Assembly (NCBI RefSeq): GCF_963506605.1
Contig: NC_083276.1
Location: 110,360,001 to 110,424,000 of the forward strand
DNA: 64,000 bases
Direction: 5' to 3'
DNA from: Zootoca vivipara
Taxonomy: Eukaryota
The notes under the pieces: model-generated
Seen by the model: the letters and a program-made list of their open reading frames with translations, nothing else
Databases searched by the model: none
What the model was told of the DNA's origin: nothing
Made by a program: the position numbers and the translations under genes
Part shown: positions 15,301 to 58,366 of the stretch, piece after piece
Layout of the letters: every line of letters starts with the position of its first letter
How positions within the stretch are numbered: the first letter of the stretch is position 1

Positions 15301-18300
15301 AACTGGCTTCATATTGCACCTCTTATCAATTAACACTTCATGTTACACCTAGCCCTCATTGCTGGCAATGTTTCATAATCCAAGAGACATGGGAGACTGT
15401 AAGAGAAAGCCAAAGCAAAACAGACCCAGAAGGAAACATATATAACAGACTTAATCACTCAGTGGATTCAACCAGTCAACAGACCTCACAATAAGACCTA
15501 TACATCCATTATAAGATCAGATAACTCTACTGACAGGAGGATAAACATGGTTACATTTATTTGTATAAAGTCTTAGCTTGAAACTTCTAAGTTCTGTCGA
15601 TAAACAGAAGACACACATCTCTGTATCTCAGATAAAACTATCTCTCCTCCCTCTCCCAACTCAGCTCTGCCATCCAGTCCACAGCTACTTCTTACAAATG
15701 GTGGGAGTTATGGCTATTCCATTACATAGCTTTTATCTGTCATCCCCCTACTAGGGTTAAGGAAACAAGGGCTCCTCTTCCTCCCTCAGCACCCTCAGTT
15801 CTCTGAAATAAGAGAGAGACGAGGAGGAGAAGGATGCTCCCATGTGGGTGTTGACTTCTATATAGTAGCACTTATCAACCAGTACTCTAACATGACAAAT
15901 TCGATGTACTGTTTTGCTCCTTGAATTAATAGTCTTTCCCCCTTATCTCAGCCCGCATGTCAGGGCACCAGCTTCAATCCACAAGCTAAATAAAATCACT
16001 TAAATCAAATCTATAAAGTTGTATGATGACATCATGGGCCAATTGCAGAGTCCATTTATTAGACATCTGAGAGATTCCACAACCAGCCACCAATCCAATC
16101 TCCTTTTTTCTATGCAGCTCCTCTACAAACACTGTGCTGAGGTCCTCCATAGTCTCCAGCCATTCAGTAAGAACTCTCTGCTTCCTTGCAAATCTCAGCA
16201 TAGTTTTAGAAGTGTGGCAATGCTCATTGTGCCACATGCTGGGAGAAGGCAGAAGGTCTGAGAGGCTAAAAGGGTAGGGGTGGTGCCTTCCACACAAATG
16301 TAAAAACAGCCTTGGCAGGGTCAGACCAAAGGTCCACCTGGTCCACCATTATGCTTCTAAACATGACTAGCCTGACTAGACCTGACTATACACAAGCAGA
16401 GCACAAGAACAACAGTCTCTGGGCAGAGGAAAAAAACCATTTAATTACCGTATTGTGGCTTAACAGCCACTGGTAGATCTATCCTGCATGAATTCATCTT
16501 CTTTTTTCTAAATCATCTAAGCTAGTGGCCATCAGGCTAACAGGAACGGCTAGATTTTATTTTATTTTTTAGCACAGGGCATGGGTACACACACATTTTG
16601 AATGCGCTTAATTTCACTTACGGCAGCCAGCTTCATCGGAGTCATCTGAACAGTCCCTTGCCCCATCACATCTCCAGTCTGCGGGGATACAGCGTCCATT
16701 TCCACAACGAAACTGTCCACTTTCACACCCTGCAAGCAAGCAATACAGTTTGTGTCCTTACTTTTGTTATCAAACAGCAAGTCGACAATATGGCTGTCTT
16801 CAAACACAGTCTTACATGAAAAGGCCGAATTCTGCTTTCAGTAGTAGACCAATGTGATTTCACACGAGGCAGCCACAAGTCAAACCTTGTAAACACCAAA
16901 CCAGAAGTTATCTGCCTGCTCGTATTTTTTTAAATAATGACGCCCATTATTGCGGTGTTAAGAAGCCAAAAAGCACCGTGACAAAGCTAACATTTCAGCA
17001 AGCGTTGAACCCATTTGTCACAAATAATCCATATACTTCTATTTTAAAATGTAGTGGCACATTCGTGAGATGGGTTTGGATCATGCCTTTAGATCTTCTT
17101 GCAGTTATGCAATGCAGAGAGAGGAGATCTAGGAATTTATCTACCAGTGACATTGGGAATGGTTTTCTGTGGTTGGAGAGCCCTTCCTTGGTCGGAACTC
17201 TGTCCATACAGATGGTTGTAAAGCTGCTATAGGAATGCACAGTCCAAAGTTGGCAATTTTTATCTCTTCACATGCATTTATCCAGGTACAGAAGAAGCCG
17301 GTATTTCAAAACACCACTATTCCATTTATCTGTTATGAAAATGCCATTATATGGTATAGCAACATGGAAAATCATTCTATCCAGTGATGTGTAGAAAAAA
17401 ATTCAAACAAATATTTTTCCATGGAAATATTTCCATTTTTAGAAATGCATTGTTTCTCTTTTTTAAAAAAAAATCTATTAGTAACATAATGAAAGGAAAT
17501 GATCTGTCAAATTTGGCAACTGGAATGGGCAGAATACTGGTGCAAATCTAAGTTGCAATTCGTTTTTTGAGAAGGATTTTGTGTGCTGGATTATTGCTAA
17601 GGCAGCAGGATAATACTTTGGTAACATCACAAGGTGGGTAAGCAATGCTGTTGTAGGGGAGATTTGTTCTAAATTAACAAGGCAGTGAAAATGACGGGCA
17701 ACTAGATAGCTTTTCCCTATAAACACGTTCAATCAAGTGGTGTTTCATGAAGTTTCAGAAAGAATGACGGTTCAAAGGGCAAAAGGCAACAGCAAAAAAT
17801 AACCTCTCCCGTCGTCTGTCGAACCAAACAAAATCTTGTCTCCTCTTATTAACCAAGTGTTAAAAAATTACTTATTTCCAATTACAACTCATCGGAAAGT
17901 AACTCATGAGAAACAGGCAATGCCAGTAAATCCTTGAACTCACAATGAGATAAACAGACAACAGATTATCCGAGCTCCGACAGTAAAACCAGGCATATCA
18001 CCGCTCATAAACACAGCTAAGCGATGCACTTCTTTGGTGTATACCGTAGGCAAACGGCTTTACGTGAGGAATGTTCAAATCTGATTGTCTGGTAGTGACA
18101 TCCTGATTTATAATGTATCCTACAAATGGTCAGATATTTCGCTTGGATAAATGGTGGTACCGGGTGGTACAGGAACATGTACACCCAAATACCTTCTAGA
18201 CTAATGCATGATGGTGGTTGGTGGTGCAGGTCTGGGTTTGGTGGTGCAGGTCTCTTATCAAGTACCTTTAAAAGCACAACAACCTCCCTTGCAAAAAATG

Positions 18301-36300: not shown

Positions 36301-39300
36301 AAACCTAACACTGCAAGAAGACAAATATGAGGGGAAAGCTCAGAACAATACTACTTCAGGTCACAAAGCCCAGAAGGAAAGGCTTTGTGGTATTGCTATT
36401 TGCTGTCTCCCCTCAAATGACTTGTCATTTCCTGCAGAACACATGGAAAGTAAATCTGGATTAAACTGGAATTGTGTTACTCAAATTTCTAGTTAGCTCA
36501 ATATACAAAAGAACGGAAGTCTTTCATGGACCTGGAAGTGTTAAATAGATTGCACATCTATCTTAGCTTAAGTCTCCTTAGATGTGCAGTACCTGTTAGT
36601 CTTCAGTTTTGCAGCTTAATAATTGGCTGTAACTCTAACCACTGGCAAAGTGGATTTTAAGTCTAACCAGGTGTCATCTAGTTACTGCTTTCAACGTGTA
36701 ACTGAAATTGTCCTATTCTTGTCCTATTCTCCACTTTAAGTGATTACTTAGCAAATTCCTGATACACTTCACTGCTTGGGACATAGAAAAAGAGTAAATT
36801 ATTAAAGAAAGATTAAGGGAAGTACAAAAACCGATTTAAAAATACATCACTGATAAAGATTTTCTAGTTAAATGATGTTTAATTTGCTGTCAACCTATTA
36901 AAAGACTTGCAAACAGCTTCTTGATCTTCTTCTGGAAAAAAACCCCATAAAATTAGACAAATAGTTTATAACCTTTTGCTATACTTATTTTGAGTAAGAG
37001 GGAATCTGAACTGATATTCTTAACACCCACCAATGTTCTAAACAATTTAAAAATAATTAAGGAGTAATCTAAACAATACTGACTACAGTGGAACCTCGGT
37101 TTATGAACACCTCGGTTTATGAATTTTCAGTTTATGAACACCGCGGACCCATCTGGAACGGATTAATTCATTTTCCATTACTTTCAATGGGAAAGTTCGC
37201 TTCAGTTTATGAACGCTTCAGTTTATGAACAGACTTCCGGAACAAATTACACCCATGCTTCAGTTTATGAACGCTTCAGTTTAAGTACCCCGCGGACCGT
37301 CTGGAACAGATTAATCCACTTTCCATTACTTTCAATGGGAAAGTTCGCTTCAGTTTATGAACAGACTTCCGGAACCAATTGTGTTCATAAACCGAGGTAC
37401 CACTGTATTAATAAAAAAAATATTAGCCTAGTACTCAATACTCTTGAATAAAGCAAATACAAAATTGCTATCACTACAATGAGAGCAAATTGTAAAAATG
37501 ACTGCATTTATTCAACACAAACCGGTAGTATTTATTAAAATTTTATACTGCTTAATATAAAAAAATTATCTAAGACACTTGCATAAAAACTGTAAAAATA
37601 CAACATTCAATCTAATTTCCTAAAAGGTGGGAGAAATCAAAATGATACATCACAACTAAAAGTTAGCAAGATACAAAACAATACAGTAAATTTAAATATT
37701 TAAGATCCTTTATATCCTTTCCCCCTGTGAGTTAGATCCTGCATCCTTGATCAAAATCAAATCTCCATTACATACTTTCCACAAGAGTACAGGGCATAGC
37801 CCAGTGCATAGCAGTTTATTTTGCTCAAGGCTTACCAAAAGTCCTTTATAATATAGATTTTTCCCATACTAGAATGGAACAGCACAACTCCAGAGAACAT
37901 AATGGGCTGGTTCAAACAGAAGTGGAAACTATGGCTTTCTGCTTTGTGAAAGAGTTGTGGACTCATGAATGCCCCCACACCAGAAGACGAAATTGAAAGC
38001 ATCTGCTTCCAATTTTATCAAACCATGACCAAGCCAGGATCAAAACATGGTTTTGGATTCCAGCTTGTTCACAAACCCATAGATTAAGCAAACTACAGTT
38101 CAACTCATTTGGATGCAAGGAGGGGCTGTGAATAGTTTACAGCTGGAAGTGGTGGCTACTCATTCAGAGATTCAGGAGATGTTCTATCATCTAAGTAAAT
38201 ACAAACCAGACAACCCTGGTTGTCTTGTTGTCTGGGGCACTGGCACTATCACAGTAGGGATTTTTAGTTACAGACTTAATTTACAAGCCATGTGCTACTA
38301 TCCCTAGTTATTTATTAAGATAAGCATACCTGAGATAACAATAGCCCATTAACTACGGTATCTTCCACAGAATGCTATTCCAGCAACCTTAGATGCCAAG
38401 TTTCTGTACACTAACATCCCCCACAAAGATGGGCTATAAACTAGGGATGCTAGCTAGCCTTGATGCTGCCACAGCACATCTGGCTAGCAGGCTATGTTTT
38501 AAGTTAAATGCATTGCAATTGGCACCAAACATGGTTCCACCATGGCAACAATTCATTTCCCAGGACCTCATGTTTACCTGAGATATGCTTGGCATCATCA
38601 TCACCTGGGTTCCACCAGACTTCAACCCACCCTCAACCTGAGCTGGGAACAATCCATTCAGCAAGTTAATTTTTCAAGCACCATGATGCAGTTATGAGGA
38701 CAACCATCACCTAGTACCATAAACTTACTAACCACCAGTGTTGTTTTTTCAGGGGGTACTCAAGGGCACCTTTTTATGTTGTGTGGCACTTACTGTAATG
38801 ACTTCATGGTGAGTACTTGCACCTATTTTTCTAGGGGGGGGGGGGAGAGCACTGCTAACCACCGTACATCAGCTTGTTTTCAACTAACTCATATGCGCAC
38901 CACACAATCCATCAACTACAGTCATGCTCTACAACACAACTACATTTGTTACAGCTCATCAGGCAAGAGCTAGGATTAGAACAACAGGGTGTCTTAAAAC
39001 TGCAGTAGTTGCCCAATTAAGTTAAGACTCAGATTGAGAAGCTCAGACTGGTGCTGAATAAAAAACCTATGACAGGTCCAGAAGAGAAATTGACAAAGCA
39101 TTTCTTGTCAACCACAGGCCCCAGCCAAAACGTAACTACAGCCCATTCAGAGTGATACTTCAACTTCAAATGCTTTGGGTAAGAGACCAGCTCTCATTTA
39201 CAGACTGGCCCCTATTCTAAAATGGCTACTGACCTGAAACTGTTTAACAAAGATGCAAACCCAGGAACTAAGCTCTGGAACAAATTCAAGAGGCAGACTT

Positions 39301-42300
39301 TGCTCCCATATTTATTCAGGTGACCCTATGACATGGCAACATCCGCCATACTATCACAAGGTTCATTCACCTGCTCAACACCCAATGTGTTCACATATGC
39401 AATCACCTGCCATGATGCCTACATAAAACAAACCAATGTTTCAACACAAGCTAATAAATGGGCACAATTCTGACATCAGAAATGACTTCATTAAGAGCTT
39501 CTGTCTTCCAGAAGGAGAATACTTCAGTCTCCCCAGAAAGGATGGCTCACATTTAGAACTGCTGAACTAGAATTTGTCAGGAAGTTCTAGCCTAGATGGA
39601 TCATTCAAAATTATAGTTCACAACAGCTGTTGAATTAGGATAGGACAGCTAAATGTTTAACATTGCTATTGAGAATGCCATTGTGAATAGGTCCATCTGT
39701 TTTTTAACCTTGTATACCAGATGTTGGTAGATAGTACTGGGATCTCTTGGTAGCTTTCTGGGTAGATCATGTACAAATTTCTGATTTCCAATTATTTAAC
39801 ATTAACAACACAAAAGCTTTCCTGATTTGAGGGAGGGGTTCAGGAGTGGATTTTTGTGTGGGCCTTCTAGGTGGTAATCAATTATGTTTTATGAGTAGGC
39901 CCACTGAAATTAATGGATTTGCGTTAGCCATGTTCATTCATTACAATGGGTCTACTCTGAGTGCAACGGTTGCCTGGGGTGGAGGGGAGGAGATGAGAAG
40001 ATTCAGTAGCATGAAGAGGACTCAGGGCTGGCAGCCTTGAGTCTGAGAGTTTTGAACTATACTTACATAGCTGGGAAGAAGGTCCAGAGAGAGGAAAGGT
40101 ACCCTGTTCTTTTCCTCCCTTCTAAAACATCCCTGCACAGCACAAAGAGATTGGTTCTAAAGAACATACTTTCCCCACCACGACCAATGCTAACCTCCCC
40201 TTTCCCAAGATAAGTTGTTAGGAGCCCGGCTAATTTCCTCTTTTTATTTACTACTACTACTTTCTCTCTCAAAAGCATCAATTGATGCTTTTGAATTATG
40301 GTGCTGGAGGAGACCCTTGAGAGTCCCATGGAAGATCAAACCTGTCCATTCTGAAGGAAATCAGCCCTGAGTACTCACTGGAAGGACAGATCCTGAAGCT
40401 GAGGCTCCAATACTTTGGCCACCTCATGAGAAGAGAAGACTCCCTGGAAAAGACCCTGATGTTGGGAAAGATTGAGGGCAACTAGGAGAAGGGGACGACA
40501 GAGGACGAGATGGTTGGACAGTGTTCTTGAAGCTACGAACATGAGTTTGACCAAACTGTGGGAGGCAGTGGAAGACAGGAGTGCCTGGCGTGCTATGGTC
40601 CATGGGGTCACGAAGAGTCGGACACGACTAAACAAAACTTTCTCTCTCGATTGCCGCAACATTATGAGCATCCTGCAAACTCACAGGTCACGGGAACCTC
40701 TTAGAAAGTCTAACATTTTGTTTTCCTTTTAATTCACAAACTTACTTCTGTATCCATATGTATCCTCCCTACTATTTTTTCTTAGTTTTTTATTGATATT
40801 CCACTTGCAAAATATACAAACTTAAATTGCGTAACAACATAAACAAAAGAAAAAATGAAACCAAAGTCCTAAGTTTTATAAACTGGATCGAGAGAAAAAA
40901 AGAGAAGGAACAGTTACAATAACAGTTTTAGTTACACGTAGCATTTAGACTGGCAAACACAGGTAAGTAACATTATAAGCATGTCAAGTGATTTGGTTTT
41001 ACATATTTTTGTTTTCTTCTTTTAATAACTTGCCAGAAACAGTTCAAATTAAAAAGAAAGGAGGGGAGTAAAGTATATATACTACACTACATTTATTGTA
41101 AAAAAAACAACAACAACTACAGGTCCTGCTCTACGGTACCATATGTGTAATTCAGCAGAATGTTTTCCTGCTATGCGTTATACAGAATGGTGTAATATCC
41201 AATACCTGGCGTCTATACGACAAAAGCTTATATATAGTTATACTTCTCAGAGTTTAATTCTGCTCTTAACCATGAATAAGAGACAACTTTGGGACTAGCT
41301 CTTCTGGACAGAATCCAGAAGGGATTTGCATTGTAATTAAGAATTCCAGATACTTGCCATGGTTCCCATTTCTAAAAATGGAGCATTTTTTCAGAGCATG
41401 TTATACCTAACTCATGCCTGCTGGTTTAAAGAAATGCCTTTAAGGAGGTCAGAGGTCAGATTCCAGGCGATGTCCATGGGGGTCTCGGACAATAGGTTCC
41501 CATATGATAGACTCTGCATATGCGGGCCAGCCACAGGTGGAAGACACCATGCATTACTTGTTAATCTCCCCTTTTTACAGGGATTAAGAGACTGATTTCG
41601 GAAACCTTTGCTAATTCCTACAAGTAAGGCTTACTAAGGCAGATGTGGTTCCCTTTATTTTGAGTGACGCCAACAGATCTGTGACACATAAAAGTGGTGC
41701 TTTATGCTCTGGCTGCAAGAAAGAATTGTACAATCATAGAGATGGACGGGACCATGAGGTTTATCTAGTCTAACCCCTTGAATGGTCACACAGAAAGAGA
41801 GAGAGAGAATATTGCAATGCAGCAACTTGCACTGGAGATTCAAAGGTCTAACAGAAGTTAAGCAAGTTACAGGTAGGTAGCAGTGTTGGTCTGACGTAGT
41901 CGAAACAAAATAAAAAAATCCCTTAAATTAAGCTAGGTACAGTATAAGCTAGCAGATGATACTTATGAACTCTGACTCCCTTGATTTATGTAATTGATTG
42001 TACGTGGTATGTTACGGTTCACAGTTTGGCATTTTGTAATGTTATAGCGCCTTTGGTTACAGTTAGAACTGGATATGGAACAACTGATTGGTTCAAAATT
42101 GGGAAAGGGGTACGACAAGGTTGTATATTGTCTCCCTGCTTATTTAACTTATATGCAGAATTCATCATGCGAAAGGCTGGACTACATGAATCCCAAGCCG
42201 GAATTAAGATTGCTGGAAGAAATATCAACAACCTCAGATATGCAGATGACACAACCTTGATGGCAGAAAGCGAGGAGGAATTAAAGAACCTTTTAATGAG

Positions 42301-45300
42301 GGTGAAAGAGGAGAGCGCAAAATATGGTCTGAAGCTCAACATCAAAAAAACCAAGATCATGGCCACTGGTCCCATCACCTCCTGGCAAATAGAAGGGGAA
42401 GAAATGGAGGCAGTGAGAGATTTTACTTTCTTGGGCTCCTTGATCACTGCAGATGGTGACAGCAGTCACGAAATTAAAAGACGCCTGCTTCTTGGGAGAA
42501 AAGCAATGACAAACCTAGACAGCATCTTAAAAAGCAGAGACATCACCTTGCCGACAAAGGTCCGTATAGTTAAAGCTATGGTTTTCCCAGTAGTGATGTA
42601 TGGAAGTGAGAGTTGGACCATAAAGAAGGCTGATCGCCGAAGAATTGATGCTTTTGAATTATGGTGCTGGAGGAGACTCTTGAGAGTCCCATGGACTGCA
42701 AGAAGATCAAACCTATCCATTCTTAAGGAAATCAGCCCTGAGTGCTCCCTGGAAGGACAGATCGTGAAGCTGAGGCTCCAATACTTTGGCCACCTCATGA
42801 GAAGAGAAGAATCCTTGGAAAAGACCCTGATGTTGGGAAAGATTGAGGGCACTAGGAGAAGGGGACGACAGAGGACAAGATGGTTGGACAGTGTTCTCGA
42901 AGCTACGAACATGAGTTTGACCAAACTGCGGGAGGCAGTGCAAGACAGGAGTGCCTGGCGTGCTCTGGTCCATGGGGTCACGAAGAGTCGGACACGACTA
43001 AACGACTAAACAACAACAACAACAACAAGCGCCTTTGGTTAATAATGGATAGTAATAATGGGACACAGGTGGTGCTGTGGGTTAAACCACAGAGCCTAGG
43101 GGTTGCCAATCAAAAAGTCAGCAGTTCGAATCCCTGCGACGGGGTGAGCTCCCGTTGCTCGGTCCCAGCTCCTGCCAACCTAGCAGTTCAAAAGCATGTC
43201 AAAGTGCAAGTAGATAAATAGGTACCGCTCTGGCAGGAAGGTAAACGGCGTTTCCATGTGCTGCTCTGGTTCGCCAGAAGCAGCTTTGTCATGCTGGCCA
43301 CATGACCCGGAAGCTGTACGCCGGCTCCCTCAACCAATAACGTGAGATGAGCGCTGCAACCCCAGAGTCGGTCATGACAGGACCTAATGGTCAGGGGTCC
43401 CTTTACCCTTAAATAATAATAATACAGTGGAGCCTCTTTCCTTCCTTCCCTCCCTCCTCTGATGCCCTCTCATGTCTCTGCCTCCCAAAGGCTTGCACAA
43501 CTACTGTATTTGTTGCAGCAGCCCAAGCTACAAGCTCCCCAGGGGAATGGTACCTCTGGGGCTGGCCATGGGGTGCTGCTGGTTGCCAGGAGCTGAGGCA
43601 GCCTCAGAATAAGCAAGCAAGCAGGTGAGGGAGCCCAGCCAGCCAGTCCACCAGCCCTTGCTGTTGGGAATGGACAGACAAGTCCTAGGCCTCTGTGGGG
43701 CACTGTGAGGAGCCACCTCCCAGAGGGCTCCCAAGGAGAGGTGAGAGGTGAGGAGAGGAGACTGAGGGAACACTCCACGAGGGAAGATGTTTCTAAAAAG
43801 GGTGAGAGGCTGCCAGCTGTAGAGCGGTAGACTCGTAATCTGGGGAACCGGGTTCGCGGCTCCACTCCTCCACATGCAGCTGCTGGGTGACCTTGGGCTA
43901 GTCACACTTCTCTGAAGTCTCTCAGCCCCACCTACCTCACAGGGTGTCTGTTGTGGGGGAGGAGGGGAAAGGAGATTGTTGTTAGCCGCTTTTGAGACTC
44001 CTTCAGGTAGTGACAAAGCAGGATATCAAATCCAAACTCTAATCTAATCTAAAAAGTGATCCCCCACAGAGGTACCGCAGAAATAATGTACAGAAATAAT
44101 CAAGGGAGCCATGGGCTCAAAAAGGTTGAAAATCTCTGTTATAAGCATTTCATGTTCAAGTAAACATGAACAGATCCATAAACCAATGTTTCCTATGTTC
44201 CTAGTTTACTCAGCAAACTTTGTGGTTGAGCAGGAATGTGAACCCAGGCCTCTGAAGGAGCATCTCCACCCCCACTCCAGCCCGGACACTGAGGTCCAGC
44301 TCCGATGGCCTTCTGGTGGTTCCCTCACTGCAAGAAGTAAGGTTATAGGGAACCGGGCAAAGGGTCTTCTCGGTAGTGATACCCGCCCTGTGGAACACCT
44401 TCCTATCAGATGTCAAGTTAATAAACAAGTATCTGACTTTTAGACAACCAGTGAAGGCAGCCCTGTTTAGGGAAGTTTTTAATGTTTGATGTTTTATTGT
44501 GTTTTTAAAATTCTGTTGGGAGCCACCCAGAGTGGCTGGGGAAACCCAGCCAGATGGGTAGGGTATAAATAATAATTATCATCATCATCATCACTGGTCT
44601 AAATCCAGCACTCTAACCACTACACCATACTGGTGATAAATATCACAGACTTAGTACCCCCCCAAAAAAAAATCACACATGCACATACCAAGATTGTTGC
44701 ATTTGCTACAATATATTAACATGACTTAAACCTACAAAATGTGTCTCTGGGGCCTGATGTGATGCTCAGAGCCCAGAATTTTCCACACAAGTAAGGTTTG
44801 GGACTGAAAATGCCCTCTCAGCAGTGTTAGGGGGAGAGAGAGGGGGGAAACCCTGAAAATTCAAAGACATGCCAGCCCTTCCTTGGCTTCAGACACTAAT
44901 GAAAATAATAACTGCAAAGGAATTAGCTTCCTGCCCATGCTGACCTTCTCAGTGGGACATTTTGCAGGTATCTGCTTCCCCCCCTCGGAAAGAGGGTGCT
45001 GTTAGCAGCAGTTGCTGTATAATTACTTACTTGATTCCTTCTAAGGAGCTTAGGCTAAGAGTTGAGCAAAGAAAGCAGATTAACAATTTGAATGCACCCA
45101 CACAACCAACACACACACACACACACTGGTGGCTGGAGGGGGGCACTCCCCAAGCCTACAGATGTGCCCCAGGAAATCTAGCCCTAATCCTGCTTCAACA
45201 ATGGGGTTTTCATTATAATTGTAGGGTAATTACACTTTGCTTGTGTGGAGGGCCAGAGAGGGAGAGGGGCAGAGAGGAAGGGGCTGCCATTACAAGGTGG

Positions 45301-46303
45301 GAATGAGGCTGTGGGAGATAGAGCTCCTCCATCCTCAACAGCCAGATTAGTACCAGGGGATGAGGAGGAGGAGGAGGAGGAGGTGATGCGGCCAAAGGCT
45401 CTGCCAGTCACATGCTTCCCAGCGTTGCCTAGCAACAGCAAAGCTCAGAGAAAAAGTTCTCTCCTCCAACTTGAAATCTGCCAGGGAGAGCCTGACCGAT
45501 GTGAAGGGGGTCTTATTATTCTTGCTTTGGACAAAAAACAACAACCGTTCTTTGCTTTGTCAAAAAGAAACACACACACAAAATCCCTCCAGCGTACAAA
45601 TTTGCACAAATTCCCCTCCAAGACATATACATATATATTCATTGCAATTAAAAATCGCGCGCGCGCACCGGTTCAAAGCCACCACAGTAAGCGGATGCAC
45701 CTTGCAGCAGCCAAAAACAAAACCACCCTCACGGCCCTCGTGCGCGCGCCATTTACAGTTGCAATGAATCTATGCCCAAAGTATATATATTTTAGAAATT
45801 GCAAAGCCATCCAACTAGCACCAGCTCGGCCCGCAACAGTTACAAAACTGTTCGCATGAGAGAATTAAGTCGCGAACACAAACGCGGCGGGCTGCCTGAG
45901 AGCGCGCGGGGAGGGGGAGGGTCCGGGTGCGAATTCGGAGCGCCTTTGAGCGAGCGCGTTTGTGAGAAAATCCCTCACCGGCCGATGGAACAAGCCGAGC
46001 CCGCTTCTTTGTCGCTTATCAAGCGCGTCCACTGTCGGGAGGGAAAGTTATTCTCCACAGATGCTGCGTGCAGAGGACCCGCTAGGTGGGAAAACTAAAG
46101 GAGAGCAGCCCCCTCCCCCACCCCAGTCCTCTTTCTCTCCTCCACAAAAAAAACACTTAAAAGTTGTGGGGTTCCCGAGCAGAGCTTCCTGGAGCTGAGA
46201 AGGGCTTACCTTGGCAGGCAGCTTGCAAGATGCAGGCAGCGAGCAAGGCGAGCACTTGGCATGCAACGGCTGCTCCGCCGTCCAGGCGCCGTCGAGGTCC
46301 CAT
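224..46303 (-). CDS. LRP2: LDL receptor-related protein 2 (megalin), exons 1-10, 3'-partial; join(46303..46210,16729..16622,14766..14644,12701..12585,6173..6063,5949..5836,4997..4881,3509..3366,2721..2602,352..224)
   Basis: Manual splicing gives one open frame: signal peptide, 7 LDLa repeats (C-x-C..W-x-CD..DC-x-D-x-SDE..C type) and 2 EGF modules. All introns are GT-AG and phase 1. The peptides and the 7-LDLa first cluster match megalin as I recall it ([46 protein letters not shown]). Confidence 0.96.
595..618 (+). repeat. (CAG)n microsatellite, intron 9
   Basis: acagcagcagcagcagcagcagca seen directly. Confidence 0.9.
2602..2721 (-). CDS. LRP2: LRP2 exon 9, EGF-like 1 ([40 protein letters not shown])
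   Basis: 120 nt, GGCAG acceptor and GTAAGT donor. Confidence 0.96.
2794..2921. other. assembly gap (N run), intron 8
   Basis: Run of N. Confidence 1.
3366..3509 (-). CDS. LRP2: LRP2 exon 8, LDLa7 ([48 protein letters not shown])
   Basis: 144 nt, CCTTAG acceptor and GTGAGT donor; visible in ORF 3358..3546. Confidence 0.95.
4000..4344 (+). mobile_element. non-autonomous DNA transposon (hAT-like MITE) with internal hairpin modules
   Basis: TIRs CATAGCTGCCAAGT / ACTTGGCAGGTATG; flanks ATGTATGTG / ATGTGTGTG (imperfect TSD); second copy inverted at 32237-32578. Confidence 0.8.
4881..4997 (-). CDS. LRP2: LRP2 exon 7, LDLa6 ([39 protein letters not shown])
   Basis: 117 nt, CCTCAG acceptor and GTAAGC donor. 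Confidence 0.96.
5836..5949 (-). CDS. LRP2: LRP2 exon 6, LDLa5 ([38 protein letters not shown])
   Basis: 114 nt, TTTCAG acceptor and GTACGT donor; follows a 113-nt intron. Confidence 0.95.
6063..6173 (-). CDS. LRP2: LRP2 exon 5, LDLa4 ([37 protein letters not shown])
   Basis: 111 nt, TTGCAG acceptor and GTAAGT donor. Confidence 0.96.
6343..6478. mobile_element. short palindromic hAT-type MITE
   Basis: TIRs CAGGCATAGGCAACCTTCGGCCC / GGGCCGAAGGTTGCCTATGCCTG; same core as copies at 49909, 58522 and 61343. Older degenerate relatives lie near 5645-5780, 6235-6340, 9530-9650 and 12060-12190. Confidence 0.8.
10766..11124 (-). mobile_element. Sauria SINE, full length, nested in an older MITE
   Basis: tRNA-like head (GGTTCGATTCCC B box), Sauria body, ACCTTT-type tail; 13-bp TSD TCTGCTGATGTTA (10753-10765, 11125-11137). 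Confidence 0.92.
12585..12701 (-). CDS. LRP2: LRP2 exon 4, LDLa3 ([39 protein letters not shown])
   Basis: 117 nt, TTTGCAG acceptor and GTGAGT donor. Confidence 0.96.
14545..14618 (-). mobile_element. degenerate tRNA-derived SINE head
   Basis: Minus strand TAGCTCAGTTGTACAGC...AGGTTCCAGGTTCAATCCCTG has A/B-box-like motifs; related heads near 48325-48400, 53835-53895 and 56780-56830. Confidence 0.55.
14644..14766 (-). CDS. LRP2: LRP2 exon 3, LDLa2 ([41 protein letters not shown])
   Basis: 123 nt, CTAG acceptor and GTAAGT donor. Confidence 0.96.
16622..16729 (-). CDS. LRP2: LRP2 exon 2, LDLa1 ([36 protein letters not shown])
   Basis: 108 nt, TTGCAG acceptor and GTAAGT donor, six-Cys LDLa pattern. 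Confidence 0.96.
18366..18506. other. assembly gap (N run), intron 1
   Basis: Run of N. Confidence 1.
20624..20826. mobile_element. hAT-type MITE
   Basis: Ends CAGGGCCAGTCC / GGGCCAGCCCTG; 8-bp TSD TTCACAGA / TTCACAGC (7/8). Confidence 0.7.
23075..23414 (+). mobile_element. Sauria SINE, full length
   Basis: GGGACGCAGGCGGCACTGTGGG head, GGGGTCCCTTTACCT tail; 14-bp TSD TAAAT(G/A)CAGTGGTA. Confidence 0.92.
23421..23661. mobile_element. Tc1/mariner-pogo (Tigger-like) MITE
   Basis: TIRs CAGTGGTATCTTGGTTT / AAACCAAGGTACCACTG, TA on both sides. Confidence 0.8.
25268..25692. mobile_element. hAT (Charlie-like) non-autonomous element
   Basis: TIRs CAGCGTTTCTCAACC / GGTTGAGAAACACTG; CpG-rich left end; no clear TSD. 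Confidence 0.7.
26246..26477. mobile_element. Tc1/mariner-pogo (Tigger-like) MITE
   Basis: TIRs CAGTGGCACCTTGGGTTA / TAACCCAAGGTACCACTG, TA flanks, internal TCAGGTTA repeats. Confidence 0.8.
26543..26745 (+). mobile_element. Penelope-like element terminus: inverted pLTR pair plus 3' tail
   Basis: Perfect 80-bp inverted repeat (26540-26619 / 26630-26709) of the same terminal sequence seen at 60265 and 61931, where it adjoins a GIY-YIG ORF; 14-bp TSD AGTCAAAACACAAT (26529-26542, 26746-26759). Confidence 0.88.
32237..32578 (-). mobile_element. hAT-like MITE, inverted copy of 4000-4344
   Basis: CATACCTGCCAAGT ... ACTTGGCAGCTTG; flanking duplication ATGGGGCG (8 bp, extendable to 10 bp). Confidence 0.8.
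33076..33190 (-). mobile_element. CR1 LINE 3' end fragment
   Basis: AGAATCACAGAATTGCAGAGTTGCAAGGGACC...CTAGTCCAACCCCCTG resembles the CR1 3'UTR seen at 55634. Confidence 0.7.
34050..34360 (+). mobile_element. solo LTR (311 bp)
   Basis: TG...CA ends, perfect 5-bp TSD TTAAT (34045-34049, 34361-34365), repeated CCAAT/ATTGG boxes, TATATAAG at 34250, AATAAA at 34317. Confidence 0.85.
35114..35316. mobile_element. old Tc1/mariner-type MITE remnant
   Basis: TA-CAGGCAGC ... GAGTTGCCTG-TA; a related right end occurs at 35041-35053. Confidence 0.45.
37086..37405 (+). mobile_element. Tc1/mariner-pogo (Tigger-like) MITE with internal TTCAGTTTATGAAC repeats
   Basis: TIRs CAGTGGAACCTCGGTTTATGAACAC / GTGTTCATAAACCGAGGTACCACTG, TA flanks; near-identical inverted copy at 47757-48092. 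Confidence 0.88.
39110..39595 (+). mobile_element. old, frameshifted Penelope-like element (linker plus GIY-YIG fragment)
   Basis: Piecewise translation gives [40 protein letters not shown] and RTAELEF, matching the younger Penelope ORF at 62205-62824. Confidence 0.7.
40271..40636 (+). mobile_element. BovB (RTE) LINE, short 3' fragment
   Basis: Near-identical to 42644-43005; 12-bp TSD ACTTTCTCTCTC (40259-40270, 40637-40648). Confidence 0.92.
41867..41924 (-). mobile_element. Penelope-like element extreme 3' tail fragment
   Basis: Reverse complement matches 26695-26745 (TTTTATTTTG.TTCGACT..CAGACCAACAC.GCTACCTACCTGTA). Confidence 0.75.
42060..43027 (+). mobile_element. BovB (RTE-clade) LINE, 5'-truncated, RT C-terminal frame intact
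   Basis: [38 protein letters not shown] and [20 protein letters not shown] are BovB-typical; (CAA)n tail; 14-bp TSD AGCGCCTTTGGTTA (42046-42059, 43028-43041). Confidence 0.96.
43060..43410 (+). mobile_element. Sauria SINE, full length
   Basis: Same head, body and tail as the other copies; sits in a TAA-rich site just after the BovB copy. Confidence 0.9.
43803..44047 (+). mobile_element. tRNA/CORE-type squamate SINE (Squam3-like)
   Basis: AGAGCGGTAGACTCGTAATCTGGGGAACCGGGTTCG head and CTGGGTGACCTTGGGCTAGTCAC CORE-like motif; flanks share TCTAAAAAG. Family name is from recall. Confidence 0.7.
44250..44580 (+). mobile_element. L2-clade LINE 3' fragment
   Basis: Degenerate RTLRSS..LL.VP...FSVV.P.LWN.LP C-terminal motif, then a 3'UTR ending GGGTATAAATAATAAT. 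Confidence 0.65.
46210..46303 (-). CDS. LRP2: LRP2 exon 1 coding part, signal peptide [31 protein letters not shown](G)
   Basis: ATG at 46303 in a CpG island; hydrophobic core with the AAVAC motif recalled from mammalian LRP2; donor G|GTAAG at 46210/46209; 94 nt, phase 1, joins exon 2 in frame. Confidence 0.92.
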
Positions 46304-46397
46304 CTGCGCGGGGATGCTTGCAGGGAGCCCTCGCAGCCACGCAGCTGGCCGGGCTTGGCGAGGAAGGCGCGCTTCTACAAGCACCTCTCGGGCTGCC

Positions 46398-46418
46398 CTC
46401 TCTCTCTCTCTCTCTCTC
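46398..46418 (+). repeat. (CT)n microsatellite, (GA)n in the LRP2 5'UTR
   Basis: ctctctctctctctctctctc seen directly. Confidence 0.9.
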
Positions 46419-46446
46419 CCCGCCCGCCCTGTCTTTCCTGATCCCG

Positions 46447-46485
46447 CTAGTTGCAGAAGAAAGGCGCGCTCGCCAGCTGAGGCAT
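46447..46485 (-). other. upstream ORF in the LRP2 5'UTR (MPQLASAPFFCN*)
   Basis: The only ATG between the inferred TSS and the main ATG; 13 codons ending in TAG at 46449-46447. Confidence 0.55.
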
Positions 46486-46499
46486 CGCTTGGCCTCGAC

Positions 46500-46545
46500 G
46501 CTCCCACCCTCCAGACATTGCATAAAGCTCTTTATACCCGCCGGC
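46500..46545 (-). promoter_or_regulatory. LRP2 core promoter with TATA box (TATAAAG, 46536-46530); inferred TSS near 46506
   Basis: Minus strand reads GGGTATAAAGAGCTTTATGCAATGTCTGGAGGGTGGG about 230 nt upstream of the ATG, inside the CpG island. The TSS is inferred from TATA spacing only. Confidence 0.7.
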
Positions 46546-47756
46546 CCCGGAACTAGCATGAGGCATTTGCTCCAGGCCCGGGAAGCCCGGGCAGCGCTTG
46601 CCCCTCCCTCTCTTCATTTGCACTTTGCAGCCGGGGCGTGCGGAGATGCAACTTTGCAAGCGAAACTTCCAAGTCGCTTCCTGCAGGGTCCCTGGCCTTT
46701 GCAGCAGGAGCAATGTTGGGAAGCAAGAATCACGACCCAACAATATTGAGCAAGTTTCGAGTGGGACTTTCTCGCGAGGAGCTGCTCCCCTACTGTGCTT
46801 CTCAAAGAAAGCTTGTCAAGGGTGGGGGTGAAGGCAAGATTTGGGGGGGGGCGGTCGGTAAAAATGGGAGAGTTTCAATTACATTCCAATCATCATAATT
46901 CCTTATACAATAGCTGCAATATTCTGTTCGTTAAATGATTTATAAAACTGCAGGTGAGGATCTCAAACTGTATCAGTAAGATTTTGGAACACAGAAATAA
47001 AGAAAACCGTCAATTTTCGCATAATTCTAAATTATATAATTTGGTATTTGAATGATTGATTGCATTATAAATTGGTGTTGTTATAATAAGGCTATTATTG
47101 GATTATAATTGAAAATTAATTTTAAAAATTATAAAAAGAAATTGGAGAGTTTTCTTTTAAAAGTATGAGATGCTTTCTAAATGGTTCCCAAGTGGCAGCT
47201 ACGGTAGTAACGGCATCTTTCATATAAACGTGTAAGAGAAGCCGGCAATACAGGGGTGCTTAAAGCGTGTGATGCTGCTCCAACACTAATGCCCCATACA
47301 AAGTACTGTTATGTTAATGTTATTGTTTCAGTGGACCTTCATCTATTGGTTCAGTGACATGTTTTCCCAACGTACATTGCCTTCACATGACTATATAGTA
47401 TTTGCTTTGGTTATGCCCACCTGCACATTTTCAAACCAGCTGTATTATTCCCAAATCTGTCCTGGTATGACCTGTGCCATTTCTCTCCCCCCCCCCTCCA
47501 TTTTCCATCTCTCTCCCCCTGCACACACACAAACACACACACACACCCCAACATGATGAATAGGGAATAATTAAATAGCCCTAGAGCTATGGAAGAAAGG
47601 GTAGCTGAAGCAAAGCAGTTTTAATAAACCAAGTACAGTATGGAGAATGCTGCTTCTTGTGAATTCAGAATGTACATCTTCATTAACAGATAGGATTACA
47701 TACTCTGATGCTATTCTTGTTTTAAGGAAAGAGCTCTCCAGGACTGTACTGCAGTA

Positions 47757-48092
47757 CAGAGGTACCTCGGTTTATGAACACAATTGGTTCCGGAAGTCTG
47801 TTCGTAAACTGAAGCGTTCATAAACTGAAGCGAACTTTCCCATTGAAAGTAATGGAAAGTGGATTAATCTGTTCCAGACGGTCCGCGGGGTACTTAAACT
47901 GAAGCGTTCATAAACTGAAGCATGGGTGTAATTGGTTCTGGAAGTCTGTTCATAAACTGAAGCGTTCATAAACTGAAGCGAACTTTCCCATTGAAAGTAA
48001 TGGAAAATGAATTAATCCGTTCCAGATGGGTCCGCGGCGTTCGTAAACCGAAAATTCATAAACCGAGGTGTTCATAAACCGAGGTTCCACTG
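47757..48092 (-). mobile_element. Tigger-like MITE, inverted copy of 37086-37405
   Basis: CAGAGGTACCTCGGTTTATGAACAC ... TTCATAAACCGAGGTTCCACTG, TA flanks. Confidence 0.88.
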
Positions 48093-49050
48093 TAGTTATA
48101 AGTTATTGTTGGGAAAGATGGTTGCAACAATTGGTGTCACTGACCATGGGTGTAGCCAGGATTTTTGTTAGGGGGAGCAGGCTTTGGGGGGGCAGAACCT
48201 CAGATTTATATTGATTTTATTGATTGGGGGGCAACTGCCCCCCCTTCACTATGCTCATGTCACTGACAGTTTTTCATTAGTGATCCTCAGGTGTTTGCAA
48301 AAAAATTCAGGGATTACTGTGGAGGGTGGGGATGGAGCTTAGTGGTAGAACAGTGCTTTGTCTGCAGATGGTTCAAGGTTCAATCCCTTGCACTTCCAGA
48401 GAGACCTCTGTCAGACACTTTTAGAGGCTTAGCTGATATACATCAACCCAGAGGGTAGGATTCTAAACTCTCAATTGTAGATTGTGGCCCATACTTAATA
48501 TATACGGTAGCACATCAAAAGAATGAATGCACCCTGATAACTACTACTAAATCAGATTAGTTTACTATGTAAATAAAACAAATAACTACAGTCATTAAAA
48601 ATGGATCTCTGTCTCAGTGGATATTTGGTTGTCGGCGTCCCCCCCCTGCAGCCATCAGTTAAAATCTTAATGATTTATGCAGGTCTTCAGAACATAATGG
48701 AAATGGTCTTACCGAACTCTTATTGCTGGCTGTTTTTGCTATTGTACTGTAATGTGTTGTCGTGATTTTAGAATTGTAATGTCAGTGGTGCTTGTATGTT
48801 GTAATTTATGGAGCTTGTTAGCCACCCTGGGCTCGCTTGTGAAGAAGGGTGTGATACAACAGAGTGTGCATCACCCACAGAGTATCAAACACAATGGAAA
48901 ACATTCCTTTCGAGTCTCAGGTGTTTCCAGTTAATACAAGGTGTGAAAACTAGAAACTAATTTCCAGCCCAGAAACCCTTTCCCCTGGAGTTTGTTACTC
49001 ATTAGATTACTCCAAAATCACACCCAAATTAAGTAGATCGTAGACTGCAG

Positions 49051-49401
49051 TGGGTGGCGCTGTGGTCTAAACCACAGAGCCTAGGGCTTGCCGATCAGAA
49101 GATTGCCAGTTCGAATCCCCGCAACGGGGCGAGCTCCCGTTGTTCGGTCCCTGCTCCTGCCCACCTAGCAGTTTGAAAGCATGTCAAAGTGCAAGTAGGT
49201 ACCGCTCTGGCGGGAAGGTAAACGGCGTTTCCGTGCGCTGCTCTGGTTTCGCCAGAAGCGGCTTAGTCATGCTGGCCACATGACCCGGAAGCTGTCTGCG
49301 GATAAACGTCGGCTCCCTCGGCCAGTAAAGCTAGATAAGCGCTGCAACCCCAGAGTCGTTCGCGACTGGACTTAACTGTCCGGGGTCCCTTTACCTTTAC
49401 C
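49051..49401 (+). mobile_element. Sauria SINE
   Basis: Full body with CCCTTTACCTTTACC tail; perfect 10-bp TSD TAGACTGCAG (49041-49050, 49402-49411). Confidence 0.92.
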
Positions 49402-49580
49402 TAGACTGCAGCTAGGATGAGCAAGTGGATGAGATCTATATTATGGCTGTCAACCTGGTTCATGCCTAGTTCTTCTCTGCATGATTACTGTACGCTTGTT
49501 GATTGGCAGCTCTATCCTATGTGCAGCATTAGGAAAGTTCTGCACAACTCTGCTGTGTGTTTTTTCCGTCCGTCCGTCCC

Positions 49581-49716
49581 CCCTGCCCTGCCCCATCTCT
49601 TCTTATCCCACTAGTTGCAGGAGAAAGGCATGTTCATCAGCTGAGGCATCAAGTTTTCTATACACTCCCACCCTCCATAAAGCTCTTTATACCTGCCAGC
49701 CCCAGCCACAAGCATG
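49581..49716 (-). pseudogene. degenerate duplicate of the LRP2 core promoter/5'UTR
   Basis: Colinear with about 46418-46560 (CTAGTTGCAG-AGAAAGGC, CAGCTGAGGCATC, CTCCCACCCTC, CATAAAGCTCTTTATACC, AGCATG); most CpGs changed to TG/CA. Confidence 0.88.
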
Positions 49717-49908
49717 ACAAATGTTGCTCTTCTTTGGTGACCCATCTATACATGCAATGTCACAGCTATCAGGTTGCATCTAATCTTAGCTGAATTTAGT
49801 TCTTAAACAATTACGTTTTCCCATGGTTAAGATCGCAGAAGGGAAGGGCGTCTGTTGCCAAGACCTGCTTTTTGTTGTCTGATGTAGAGAGGTATATATT
49901 CTTTAGAG

Positions 49909-50044
49909 CAGGCACCCCCAAACTTCGGCTCTCCAGATGTTTTGGACTACAATTCCCATCATCCCTGACCACTGGTCCTCTTAGCTAGGGATAATGGGAG
50001 TTGTAGGCCAAAACATCTGGAGGGCCGCAGTTTGGGGATGCCTG
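49909..50044. mobile_element. short palindromic hAT-type MITE
   Basis: TIRs CAGGCACCCCCAAACT / AGTTTGGGGATGCCTG; perfect 8-bp TSD CTTTAGAG. Confidence 0.9.
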
Positions 50045-51959
50045 CTTTAGAGCATCCAAATTTCTTACCAAGGCTTTAAAAATTCATGTAATAAAACTTA
50101 AAGGGGAAATGGGAAATGATTTATTCTGTAAAGGTCAGGGAGTAGAAATGCTCATCAGCTGAGGCATCAAGTTTTCTATTATTAGCAGTATTATTATTAT
50201 TATTATTATTGTGTGTGTACTGGCTGCTCGCTAAACACAATAAATAAAACTGAACTGAATTTAGTTCTGGTTGAAATCTATAGGACTTGACCTAGTTGTT
50301 ACTAACCTCATTCAACTAACCTAGTCTGGTTCCAGCCTATCAAGTGATTAGCACGCATGTGTGAACCTGCCCATATTCAGCGAAGCACAAGACAGTTAAT
50401 TATTTCTCTTCCTTTTTTACATGCACATCTAAATACAGAAGCCTTGGATGGTAAATATTATTTAAACATTCTTAATTCTTCTGGTTAAATGCATATACAA
50501 TTTAGGAGTTTTTGTTTTGTATTTTGGTTAACTGAGCTGGACACTCCAAACCTGCAGTTCAATGCACAGGAATAAGGTCTGTTCTATGAAGGAAACCGTT
50601 GCAGATGATGTCGCCACGTGGAAGACAGACCTCCTACCCCAGGAAAATAAAGGGCAGATGTGTTCTAGAACGTCACAATTTGGGTATGCATAAATTTTGG
50701 CACATAAGTGGTATATTTATTAATCAACAACAACAATGCCGCCTTTACAGCGACTCAAACTTGCTGAAACCTTAAAAATTGCTGAGTTTTGTGCATTTTT
50801 AACCTAAATCTGATAACTCCTTGCCTGAAATAGGATGCCTCTGCTAATATGTGCTCCAAAGAGTAATACGTACATGGTTATATTACTTTTTATGATTCCT
50901 TATGCTCTCGGGCCATATCCAGGGCTGTTAAATTGTGCGGTGGGGGGGGGGAAGGTTCACAGATCGAACTTCCCTTCTGGATGTCAAAGATCCCAACCGC
51001 AAGGAAGAGCCCATGCGAAATTATACCCTTTCCAATGTCAGACAGCTGGGAACTGTTGGTTATTTACTGGAGGGCCCTTGTCTCTCAAACCCCCAGGCTC
51101 CCTCTTCTTTCTGCCTTGATCACACACTCAAGGGCTCTCTAAATAACCTCTCAGGCGTTTCCATTAGAGTTGCAGCAGGGAGAAGGGAAAGCAGAAGGGA
51201 AGAGAGCAAGAGTGTGCAAGGTTTCGGCAGGGGGTTGTGATTTATGCAGGTTTAGGGCTGCTTGGGTAGTGGTACGACACAGCACCGGGGTCAAGCCACA
51301 AGAAACACTGGGGGCAGATCAGAATATTCAATGAGCTTCCTGGCACCTCTGAATCACAAAGAAGGGATCAGATCTCTCCATCACAAGATCTAGAGCAGCT
51401 GAGAGGGGAGGAGGAGGGAGGGGCTCTCCAAATCTCTCTCTCTCTCTTTCTGCCTGCCTGCCAGCCTGTCTCCATTCTCTACAGGCGAACAGCTCCTGAA
51501 ACATTCCTTTCTGCCCCGAAGGGCTTTATTCTCCCTGCTATTGTTCTTTGCTGTGTCTTGCAGGGTTGCCACTGGAATTCTTGTCATGGTTTCACAGCAA
51601 GGCACAGGCGGCTGGAGGAGTAAGCTGGCCAGACCAAACCAGCTGCAATGCGAGTCTTAACGGGGGGGGGGGGAACAAACCCCTAAATCAGGGGTGGGGA
51701 GAGGCAGGAATCCATTGACAGCAGCTGATCTGGCCCACCCCTCTGACCCCCACAGAAAAAAGTTGCAATAGTCACAGGTTGGCTACGTGGAGACCGGCAG
51801 GTGAGCATGGCCAGACGTGTCCCGAGTTGCCCACTTTGCACAAGCATGTGGGTTTTAAGAAAGGGGTTATTATTATTTTGACACGACCTGGGAAATTGAA
51901 GACCTGAAGTCTTGAAAGACTCGCCATTAAGAATCATATAATTTTATGCCAGTATAGTC

Positions 51960-57507: not shown

Positions 57508-58366
57508 CTGAGTTCATCATGCAAAAGGCTGGACTGGATGAATCCCAAGACAGAATTAAGATTGCCAGAAGAAATGTCAACAACCTCAGATATGCTGATG
57601 ACACAACCTTGATGGCAGAAAGTGAGGAGGAATTAAAGAACCTTTCAATGAGGGTGAAAGAGGAGAGCGCAAAATATGGTCTGAAGCTCAACATCAAAAA
57701 AACTAAGATCATGGCCACTGGTCCCATCACCTCCTGGCAAATAGAAGGGGAAGAAATGGAGGCAGTGAGAGATTTTACTTTCTTGGGTTCCGTGATCACT
57801 GCAAATGGTGACAGCAGTCATGAAATTAAAAGACGCCTGCTTCTTGGGAGTAAAGCAATGACAAACCTAGACAGCATCTTAAAAAGCAGAGACATCACCT
57901 TGCCAACAAAGGTCCGTATAGTTAAAGCTATGGTTTTCCCAGTCGTGGTGTATGGAAGTGAGAGCTGGACCATAAATAAGGCTGATCGACGAAGAATTGA
58001 TGCTTTTGAATTATGGTGCTGGAGGAGACTCTTGAGAGTCCCATGGACTGCAAGAAGATCAAACCCATCCATTATGAAGGAAATCAGCCCTGAGTGCTCA
58101 CTGGAAGGACAGATCCTGAAGCTGAGGCTCCAATACTTTGGCCACCTTGTGAGAAGAGAAGACTCCTTGAAAAAGACCCTCATGTTGGGAAAGATTGAGG
58201 GCACAAGGAGAAGGGGACGACAGAGGACGAGATGGTTGGACAGTGTTCTCGAAGCTACGAACATGAGTCTGACCAAACTGCGGGAGGCAGTGGAAGACAA
58301 GAGTGCCTGGCGTGCTATGGTCCATGGGGTCACGAAGAGTCTGACACGACTAAACAACAACAACAA
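57508..58366 (+). mobile_element. BovB (RTE) LINE, 5'-truncated
   Basis: Highly similar to 42155-43027 with the YADD motif and (CAA)n tail. No clear TSD; it abuts an AAT-tailed LINE end on the minus strand (about 57350-57460). Confidence 0.95.

What the first reader, a model, noticed from the sequence alone, without database searches (positions are those of the whole stretch)
49581..49716. A CpG-decayed 'shadow' copy of the LRP2 core promoter and 5'UTR 3.15 kb upstream
Seen: 49581-49716 aligns colinearly and in the same orientation with about 46418-46560. Nearly every CpG of the live promoter appears as TG or CA in the copy (ATCCCGCTAG>ATCCCACTAG; GGCGCGCTCGCC>GGCATGTTCATC; ACCCGCCGGCCCCGG>ACCTGCCAGCCCCAG), while CATAAAGCTCTTTATACC (TATA), CTCCCACCCTC and CAGCTGAGGCATC are retained; about 8 nt next to the TATA are deleted. 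No recognisable exon-1 coding sequence or splice donor follows. Established: this mutation spectrum is the signature of germline methylation. Inference: a local duplication of the promoter left the CpG island, became methylated, and is now either a fossil or an alternative upstream TSS/enhancer. From memory, the copy's minus-strand TAGAAAAC..GATGCCTC resembles the human LRP2 5' leader more than the live copy does, which would mean it keeps the ancestral state there; this recollection needs checking.
Basis: partly seen in the sequence, partly recalled or inferred. Interest (0 to 1): 0.75.

Follow-up and report, generated by a model that had tools for sequence, protein, structure and literature searches.

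The report
Duplicated megalin promoter splits ancestral motifs
About 3 kb upstream of the megalin (LRP2) gene this lizard carries one old partial copy of the gene's start region that has lost all its CpG sites and a predicted repressor site but kept a human-like motif that the promoter next to the gene has lost, so it likely still acts as a regulatory element, although no activity has been shown.

Summary
The duplication is real: 49558-49729 aligns with the LRP2 promoter at 46394-46572, occurs once more in the genome only, and is held by independent DNA runs. None of 12 promoter CpGs survives in the copy (10 read TG/CA). But it is not a one-way decayed shadow. Published human LRP2 primers show reciprocal loss: the copy keeps the human-like TAGAAAA block (16/20 versus 12/20; 5:1 at differing sites), which the gene-proximal promoter has lost; the copy's 9-nt deletion removes the homologue of the human repressive SMAD site, and the HNF4a site lies outside the copied part. 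A third 32-nt piece (50148-50179) repeats the TAGAAAA block. Non-CpG changes are clustered, and a local CpG clock makes neutral decay mildly unlikely (about p 0.03-0.08). RNA data were uninformative, and no cross-species constraint test was obtained. Verdict: an old local promoter duplication with split motifs; still-selected regulatory element 0.5, inert fossil 0.4. A known kind of event, moderate interest.

The parts
46210..46303 (-). LRP2 exon 1 coding part (signal-peptide-like, ATG at 46303, phase-1 donor GT at 46209)
   Evidence: Translation; joins in frame to exon 2 starting about 16729, which encodes Pfam Ldl_recept_a; LDLa-type and EGF-type exons follow down the window
46394..46572 (-). 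Gene-proximal ('live') core promoter / 5' leader, CpG-rich, source-homologous segment
   Evidence: Alignment; CpG o/e 0.76 over 46305-46650; human primers match here best or joint best
46487..46497 (-). Block where the live promoter has lost the human-like TAGAAAA motif (8 of 11 bases differ from the copy)
   Evidence: Copy equals human at 5, live at 1, neither at 2 of the 8 differing sites
46512..46520 (+). 9 nt present in live, deleted in the copy; holds CAGAC, the positional homologue of the human repressive SMAD site SBE2 (-57)
   Evidence: Human MutSBE2 primer matches 28 of 38 unmutated bases at 46495 with its mutated bases on this motif; no CAGAC in 49560-49800
46530..46536 (-).
46619..46631 (-). 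HNF4a site core, 13 of 13 equal to the human probe; outside the copied segment
   Evidence: Probe from PMC6295598; match; no such core near the copy except one inside the SINE on the other strand
49558..49729 (-). Upstream copy of the core promoter (clear core 49581-49729), no CpG in the core, SMAD-site deletion, GC box lost
49654..49662 (-). TATAGAAAA: human-like TATA-like block kept in the copy
   Evidence: TATAGAAA is among the weakest TATA variants in a yeast system (PMC2396422 passages)
49685..49691 (-). TATAAAG motif in the copy
50148..50179 (-). Third, 32-nt piece copied from the upstream copy after its CpG loss; spans TAGAAAA to about the predicted start
   Evidence: 1 of 32 differs from the copy, 12 of 32 from live; its 27-mer occurs at 2 places in the genome, both here
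49403..49557 (-). Possible heavily decayed trace of the rest of exon 1 (inconclusive)
   Evidence: Global score reached by 37 of 1538 real windows and 53 of 1000 shuffles; local alignment not significant
49051..49401 (+). Young SINE (Sauria-type, name recalled) with a 10-nt target-site duplication (49041-49050, 49402-49411); its tail supplies donor-like sites on the minus strand
   Evidence: 8 of 285 non-CpG differences from its subfamily majority
49898..50055 (.). Short inverted-repeat element between the copy and the third piece; multi-copy in the window

Best explanation
An old local DNA duplication placed a second copy of the LRP2 core promoter 3.16 kb upstream, and the two copies have since lost different motifs, with the upstream copy likely still kept by selection as a CpG-poor regulatory element of LRP2 (a weak second promoter or a promoter-derived enhancer). 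Shown: the copy has no CpG, lacks the 9 nt that carry the SMAD-site homologue, does not include the HNF4a site, and keeps the human-like TAGAAAA block; the gene-proximal copy keeps the CpG island, SMAD and HNF4a sites and has lost TAGAAAA. Inferred: the copy fell outside the unmethylated island and was methylated in the germ line; its run of unchanged non-CpG bases reflects protein-binding sites under selection; if it initiates, it would do so near 49630 or 49660, would be predicted to escape SMAD repression and HNF4a control, and would need to splice into the live exon 1 leader to keep the signal peptide.
For: Reciprocal motif loss polarised with human primers. Longest unchanged non-CpG run is 38 of 119 columns, p 0.009 by permutation; 48 of 111, p 0.005, when the 11-nt block is left out. 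SINE calibration gives a CpG hazard of 14.4 per unit of non-CpG change (96 of 299 sites decayed, 86 of 3188 columns changed, 11 copies), so losing 8-10 CpGs needs neutral divergence of at least 0.08-0.09 on the copy's branch; the best joint tail for a neutral copy is 0.004-0.015, about p 0.03-0.08 when combined (my arithmetic, Fisher's method). Homology ends within a few bases of the stretch covered by the human primers and nothing aligns upstream. The copy is present in its flanking context in a second organism (one 266-nt contig, 15 differences, 24 gap letters).
Against: No transcript or chromatin evidence: three own-species RNA runs (6% of each read) show depth 0 on the copy but also 0, 0 and at most 0.67 on live exon 1, so they test nothing. 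Total non-CpG difference (18 of 119) is compatible with a neutral branch of 0.09-0.12. The clock argument assumes the CpGs were ancestral; gains on the live side would weaken it (11 live-GC versus 5 copy-GC differences, p 0.21). The 'unchanged' run contains the 9-nt deletion and was chosen after seeing the data. The copy lacks the HNF4a site that carries most HNF4a-driven activity in the human reporter and the GC box. No native donor was found; young repeats sit about 160 and 170 nt from its ends. The 32-nt third piece shows that short local copies arise here without any need for selection.
Confidence: 0.5

Rival explanations
1. Inert fossil: a short (about 170 nt) templated local copy that was methylated and has drifted neutrally; the human-like block survives by chance while the live promoter changed faster through GC-directed substitutions and came to rely on TATAAAG or dispersed CpG-island starts.
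For: Complete CpG loss; missing HNF4a site and GC box; no native donor; non-CpG distance 0.17 fits an age that removes most CpGs; short local copying is shown by the third piece; the neighbouring SINE has also lost CpGs (4 of 27), so the region is at least partly methylated.
Against: Clustered non-CpG changes (p 0.005-0.009); joint neutral test about p 0.03-0.08; ends of homology coincide with the human-conserved core; borderline trace of the rest of exon 1 would imply a larger and much older duplication whose core alone stayed alignable.
Confidence: 0.4
2. Neutral copy partly refreshed by gene conversion from the live promoter, which would make the TATAAAG / GT-box block look conserved.
For: Same strand, 3 kb apart; patchy identity.
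Against: All 4 CpGs in that block are decayed and the 9-nt deletion lies inside it, so any conversion is old; the TAGAAAA block was not converted.
Confidence: 0.07
3. Dispersed repeat, retrocopied leader, or assembly artefact.
For: If the upstream human start used in PMC6295598 applies, the whole copied segment lies inside the 5' leader, which an RNA-templated copy could carry.
Against: 2 places in the genome (the search warns that it skips very common words); held at 0.77-1.00 of words by 8 runs from two studies other than the possible source; 26% divergent from the live copy, so not a read-duplication error; a retrocopy has no reason to land 3 kb from its source.
Confidence: 0.03

Closest known systems
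Duplication-degeneration-complementation of promoter elements, e.g. zebrafish fabp1 duplicates (PMC4947323, abstract seen)
   Same: Two copies of one ancestral promoter each keep a different subset of ancestral motifs.
   Different: There whole genes were duplicated and partition was shown with reporters; here only the promoter survives, beside a single gene, and no activity is shown.
Promoter/enhancer repurposed elements (Carelli et al. 2018, PMC6172195; abstract and one results section seen)
   Same: The non-promoter state has the lower CpG content.
   Different: Those are orthologous elements switching role between species, mostly enhancer to promoter, defined by chromatin data; this is a paralogous copy in cis with no chromatin data.
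Human LRP2/megalin core promoter (PMC6532859 and PMC6295598, passages seen; Knutson 1998 and Zhao 2001 seen only as reference entries)
   Same: Same order of motifs: HNF4a site, TCTAAAG/TATAAAG block, SMAD site, GT box, TAGAAAA, GATGCCTC.
   Different: Human has these motifs in one promoter; this lizard has them split between two copies. That TAGAAAA is the functional atypical TATA element of human and rat LRP2 is my recall of those two papers, which were not held.

Membership tests
Local (same-locus) DNA duplication of the LRP2 promoter | Colinear similarity beyond chance, same locus | tested here: met
Local (same-locus) DNA duplication of the LRP2 promoter | Not a dispersed repeat | tested here: met
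   2 places; 4 places in the reverse search, two of them microsatellite-part hits
Local (same-locus) DNA duplication of the LRP2 promoter | Present in independent DNA data | tested here: met
   8 runs of two further studies hold 0.77-1.00 of 44 words; one contig from organism G. Contiguity of the two copies on one read was not tested.
Methylation-decayed sequence | Excess of CG to TG/CA over other changes | tested here: met
   10 of 12 CpGs; Fisher p 1.7e-4
Methylation-decayed sequence | Direction of change (CpG ancestral, lost in the copy) | tested here: inconclusive
   Human primers cover few CpG sites; 46496 is a live-side change, 46486 unresolved
Alternative promoter / alternative first exon | Capped transcription start on the copy | tested here: inconclusive
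   RNA runs lack LRP2 expression; contigs cannot show a start
Alternative promoter / alternative first exon | Core promoter motifs present | tested here: met
   TATAAAG, GT box, TATAGAAAA kept; HNF4a site and GC box absent
Alternative promoter / alternative first exon | Splice donor joined to downstream LRP2 exons | tested here: inconclusive
   Only SINE-tail donor-like sites in 48900-49700; no such joint among the rows shown, but no reads covered the copy
Subfunctionalised (DDC) regulatory duplicates | Reciprocal loss of ancestral elements | tested here: met
   one outgroup (human), about 110 nt of primer sequence
Subfunctionalised (DDC) regulatory duplicates | Both copies active with complementary roles | not testable with these tools
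   Needs reporters or tissue 5'-end data
Subfunctionalised (DDC) regulatory duplicates | Purifying selection on the second copy | tested here: inconclusive
   Within-genome tests p 0.005-0.08; cross-species core-versus-flank comparison not obtained
Promoter/enhancer repurposed element | Enhancer chromatin marks without stable transcript | not testable with these tools
   No chromatin data available

The most novel reading that the evidence does not exclude
LRP2 in this lizard lineage has two working promoters made by splitting one ancestral promoter in cis: the upstream, CpG-free copy holds the ancestral TATA-like element, is free of the SMAD repressor site and of HNF4a control, and drives full-length megalin in a separate tissue or stage by splicing into the live exon 1 leader, while the gene-proximal copy became a CpG-island promoter without that element.
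Probability: 0.15. Interest if true: 0.65.

Novelty: new member of a known kind. Interest (0 to 1): 0.4.

Why it matters
It is a compact natural experiment: the same 150-nt promoter evolving inside and outside a CpG island 3 kb apart, with a human outgroup whose motifs have been mapped by mutation. If the copy is active, it shows subfunctionalisation of a promoter without gene duplication and gives reptile megalin, a receptor for kidney and yolk-sac uptake, a predicted TGF-beta-insensitive route of expression. Even as a fossil it records that the working promoter lost a motif conserved with mammals after the duplication. The effect is confined to one locus, and the kinds of process involved are known.

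Tried and rejected
No RNA holder was listed for the copy; this blank is not used as evidence. Run X20 (RNA is a guess) has one depth-3.1 contig on 49468-49736 and none on live exon 1, but it was picked for holding that stretch, may be DNA, and extends upstream of both TATA-like motifs, so it counts only as presence in organism G. Homology upstream of the copy: none in 4 comparisons. Exon-1 remnant: local alignments not significant, the first 60 nt not significant, global alignments borderline (p 0.017; 53 and 46 of 1000 shuffles, 37 of 1538 and 14 of 1546 real windows, the second with boundaries chosen after viewing); left inconclusive. An ATG at 49463 sits at nearly the same offset as the real ATG but its frame stops at the SINE junction, and none of 8 upstream ATG frames reaches a donor open. 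Low methylation near the copy: the adjacent SINE has the fewest decayed CpGs of 12 copies (4 of 27; others 5-13 of 28), too slight to use. The first SINE calibration mixed subfamilies (ratio 6.0) and was replaced. One search failed on a script error; one search was a bacterial promoter scan with no bearing. Earlier findings: nothing; one unrelated multi-copy camelid cassette, not used. Ten literature searches (listings only) showed no paper on a reptile LRP2 promoter copy and none printing the TAGAAAA function for megalin.

Full report
Setting. The window holds the 5' end of LRP2 on the minus strand. Exon 1 has its ATG at 46303 and a phase-1 donor at 46209; exon 2 begins near 16729 and joins in frame. 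Three exons tested all hit Pfam Ldl_recept_a (3 of 3), and the scan shows seven LDLa-type exons followed by EGF-type exons, the LRP2 architecture as I recall it. Published human LRP2 promoter primers map onto this promoter, which independently supports the name.

Observation. The copy is real. Self-BLAST aligns 46418-46561 with 49581-49717 at 74%; the local alignment spans 46394-46572 / 49558-49729 and scores 7026 against at most 1763 in 200 shuffles. None of 12 live CpGs is kept and 10 read TG or CA; CpG columns differ in 12 of 22 cases, others in 18 of 119 (p 1.7e-4; K2P 0.17). The genome holds 2 matches to the copy and 4 to the live promoter, two being short hits to the microsatellite part. 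Of 24 runs listed, 10 of the same organism hold 0.66-1.00 of 44 words, 8 of them from two studies other than the possible source. One contig of another organism covers 49468-49736 with 15 differences and 24 gap letters, so the copy predates that split. A third piece, 50148-50179, differs from the copy at 1 of 32 bases and from the live promoter at 12 of 32; its 27-mer occurs at just these two places with up to 2 mismatches. It carries the copy's decayed CpG states, so it was copied from the copy later (inference).

An outgroup from the literature. PMC6532859 (passages seen) prints human primers around a repressive SMAD element at -57; PMC6295598 (passages) prints an HNF4a probe whose mutation cut reporter activity by about 80%. 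Laid on the window: the -57 reverse primer matches the copy and the third piece at 16 of 20 and the live promoter at 12 of 20; at the 8 differing sites the copy equals human at 5, live at 1, neither at 2. The SMAD mutagenesis primer matches live at 28 of 38 unmutated bases, and its mutated bases fall on CAGAC at 46512, inside the 9 nt that the copy lacks. The forward primer is closer to live (13 versus 10 of 18). The HNF4a core matches live 46619-46631 at 13 of 13 and lies 47 nt outside the copied segment. So each copy has lost something ancestral: the copy lost CpGs, the GC box and the SMAD site and lacks the HNF4a site; the live promoter lost TAGAAAA. This rests on one outgroup and about 110 nt of primers.

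Which motif is the TATA box. TAGAAAA lies about 21 nt downstream of the SMAD site in the lizard, near -35 to -30 in the same frame. I recall that Knutson 1998 and Zhao 2001 describe TAGAAAA as the atypical TATA element of human and rat LRP2; neither paper is held, I saw only their reference entries, and searches did not find the statement. In a yeast system TATAGAAA and TAGAAAAA were the weakest variants (PMC2396422 passages). The two human papers also place the start differently: by lizard spacing the HNF4a paper's start is about 165 nt upstream, which would put the whole copied segment in the 5' leader. The start in this lizard is unknown.

Is the copy under selection. Non-CpG differences are clustered: the longest unchanged run is 38 of 119 columns (p 0.009), or 48 of 111 without the 11-nt block (p 0.005). 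Eleven relatives of the neighbouring SINE give a CpG hazard of 14.4 per unit of non-CpG change. Losing 8-10 CpGs then needs at least 0.08-0.09 neutral divergence on the copy's branch, at which such a run has probability 0.07-0.22; the best joint value is 0.004-0.015, about p 0.03-0.08 combined. This is modest, post hoc, ignores the deletion inside the run, and assumes the CpGs were ancestral; the GC direction of other differences (11 live, 5 copy; p 0.21) leaves room for gains on the live side. The rest of exon 1 aligns globally to 49403-49557 at a borderline level (p 0.017; 37 of 1538 real windows, 53 of 1000 shuffles) and not locally; if real it would mean a larger, older duplication of which only the core stayed recognisable. 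Nothing aligns upstream. The cross-species core-versus-flank comparison, the most direct test, was not obtained.

Expression. Three own-species RNA runs, 6% of each read, gave depth 0 on the copy and 0, 0 and at most 0.67 on live exon 1: uninformative. The only donor-like sites found after the copy (49400, 49394) are in the tail of a SINE with a 10-nt target-site duplication and 2.8% non-CpG divergence, younger than the copy. None of 8 ATG frames there stays open to a donor, so a direct splice to exon 2 would lack the signal peptide; a productive transcript would have to enter the live leader, where AG sites exist at 46446 and just before the ATG (seen in the sequence; untested).

Mechanism. 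Shown: duplication, uniqueness, CpG loss, reciprocal motif loss relative to human, a later 32-nt re-copy. Inferred: DNA-level local copying, germ-line methylation outside the island, selection on the retained block, and a role as weak second promoter or enhancer free of SMAD and HNF4a control. I give that reading 0.5, an inert fossil 0.4, old gene conversion 0.07, repeat or artefact 0.03.

Comparison and novelty. It works like promoter subfunctionalisation after duplication (PMC4947323, abstract) and resembles the CpG-poor state of repurposed promoter/enhancer elements (PMC6172195, abstract and one section), but membership in either needs activity data. PMC9382895, PMC7028021 and PMC3032793 (passages) added no sequence bearing on the copy. 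Ten searches (listings) showed no report of this element; most subscription papers are outside the library. New member of a known kind; interest 0.4.

Noticed in passing
   Followed up: yes
window 46479-46496: The live-side changes that removed TAGAAAA create a 5-bp inverted repeat (GAGGC ... GCCTC), which could point to one template-switch event instead of separate substitutions.
   Followed up: no
window 46521-46536 and 49676-49691: The block around TATAAAG is a near-palindrome (ATAAAG-CT-CTTTAT) and contains a TTTATG homeobox-type motif; it may be a factor site and not a TATA box.
   Followed up: no
window 45633-45773: A 32-nt inverted repeat (84% complementary, 77 nt apart) at the CpG-rich start of intron 1.
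   Followed up: no
window 49051-49401: The SINE next to the copy has the fewest decayed CpGs among 12 related copies (4 of 27) and carries an HNF4-like core at 49185.
   Followed up: partly
window 42158-43016 and 57510-58366: Two 859-nt LINE reverse-transcriptase-like fragments, 95% alike, one in intron 1 and one upstream.
   Followed up: no
window 37082-37407 and 47755-48096: Two copies of a 340-nt element with terminal inverted repeats and an internal 137-nt duplication, one lying between the two promoter copies.
   Followed up: no
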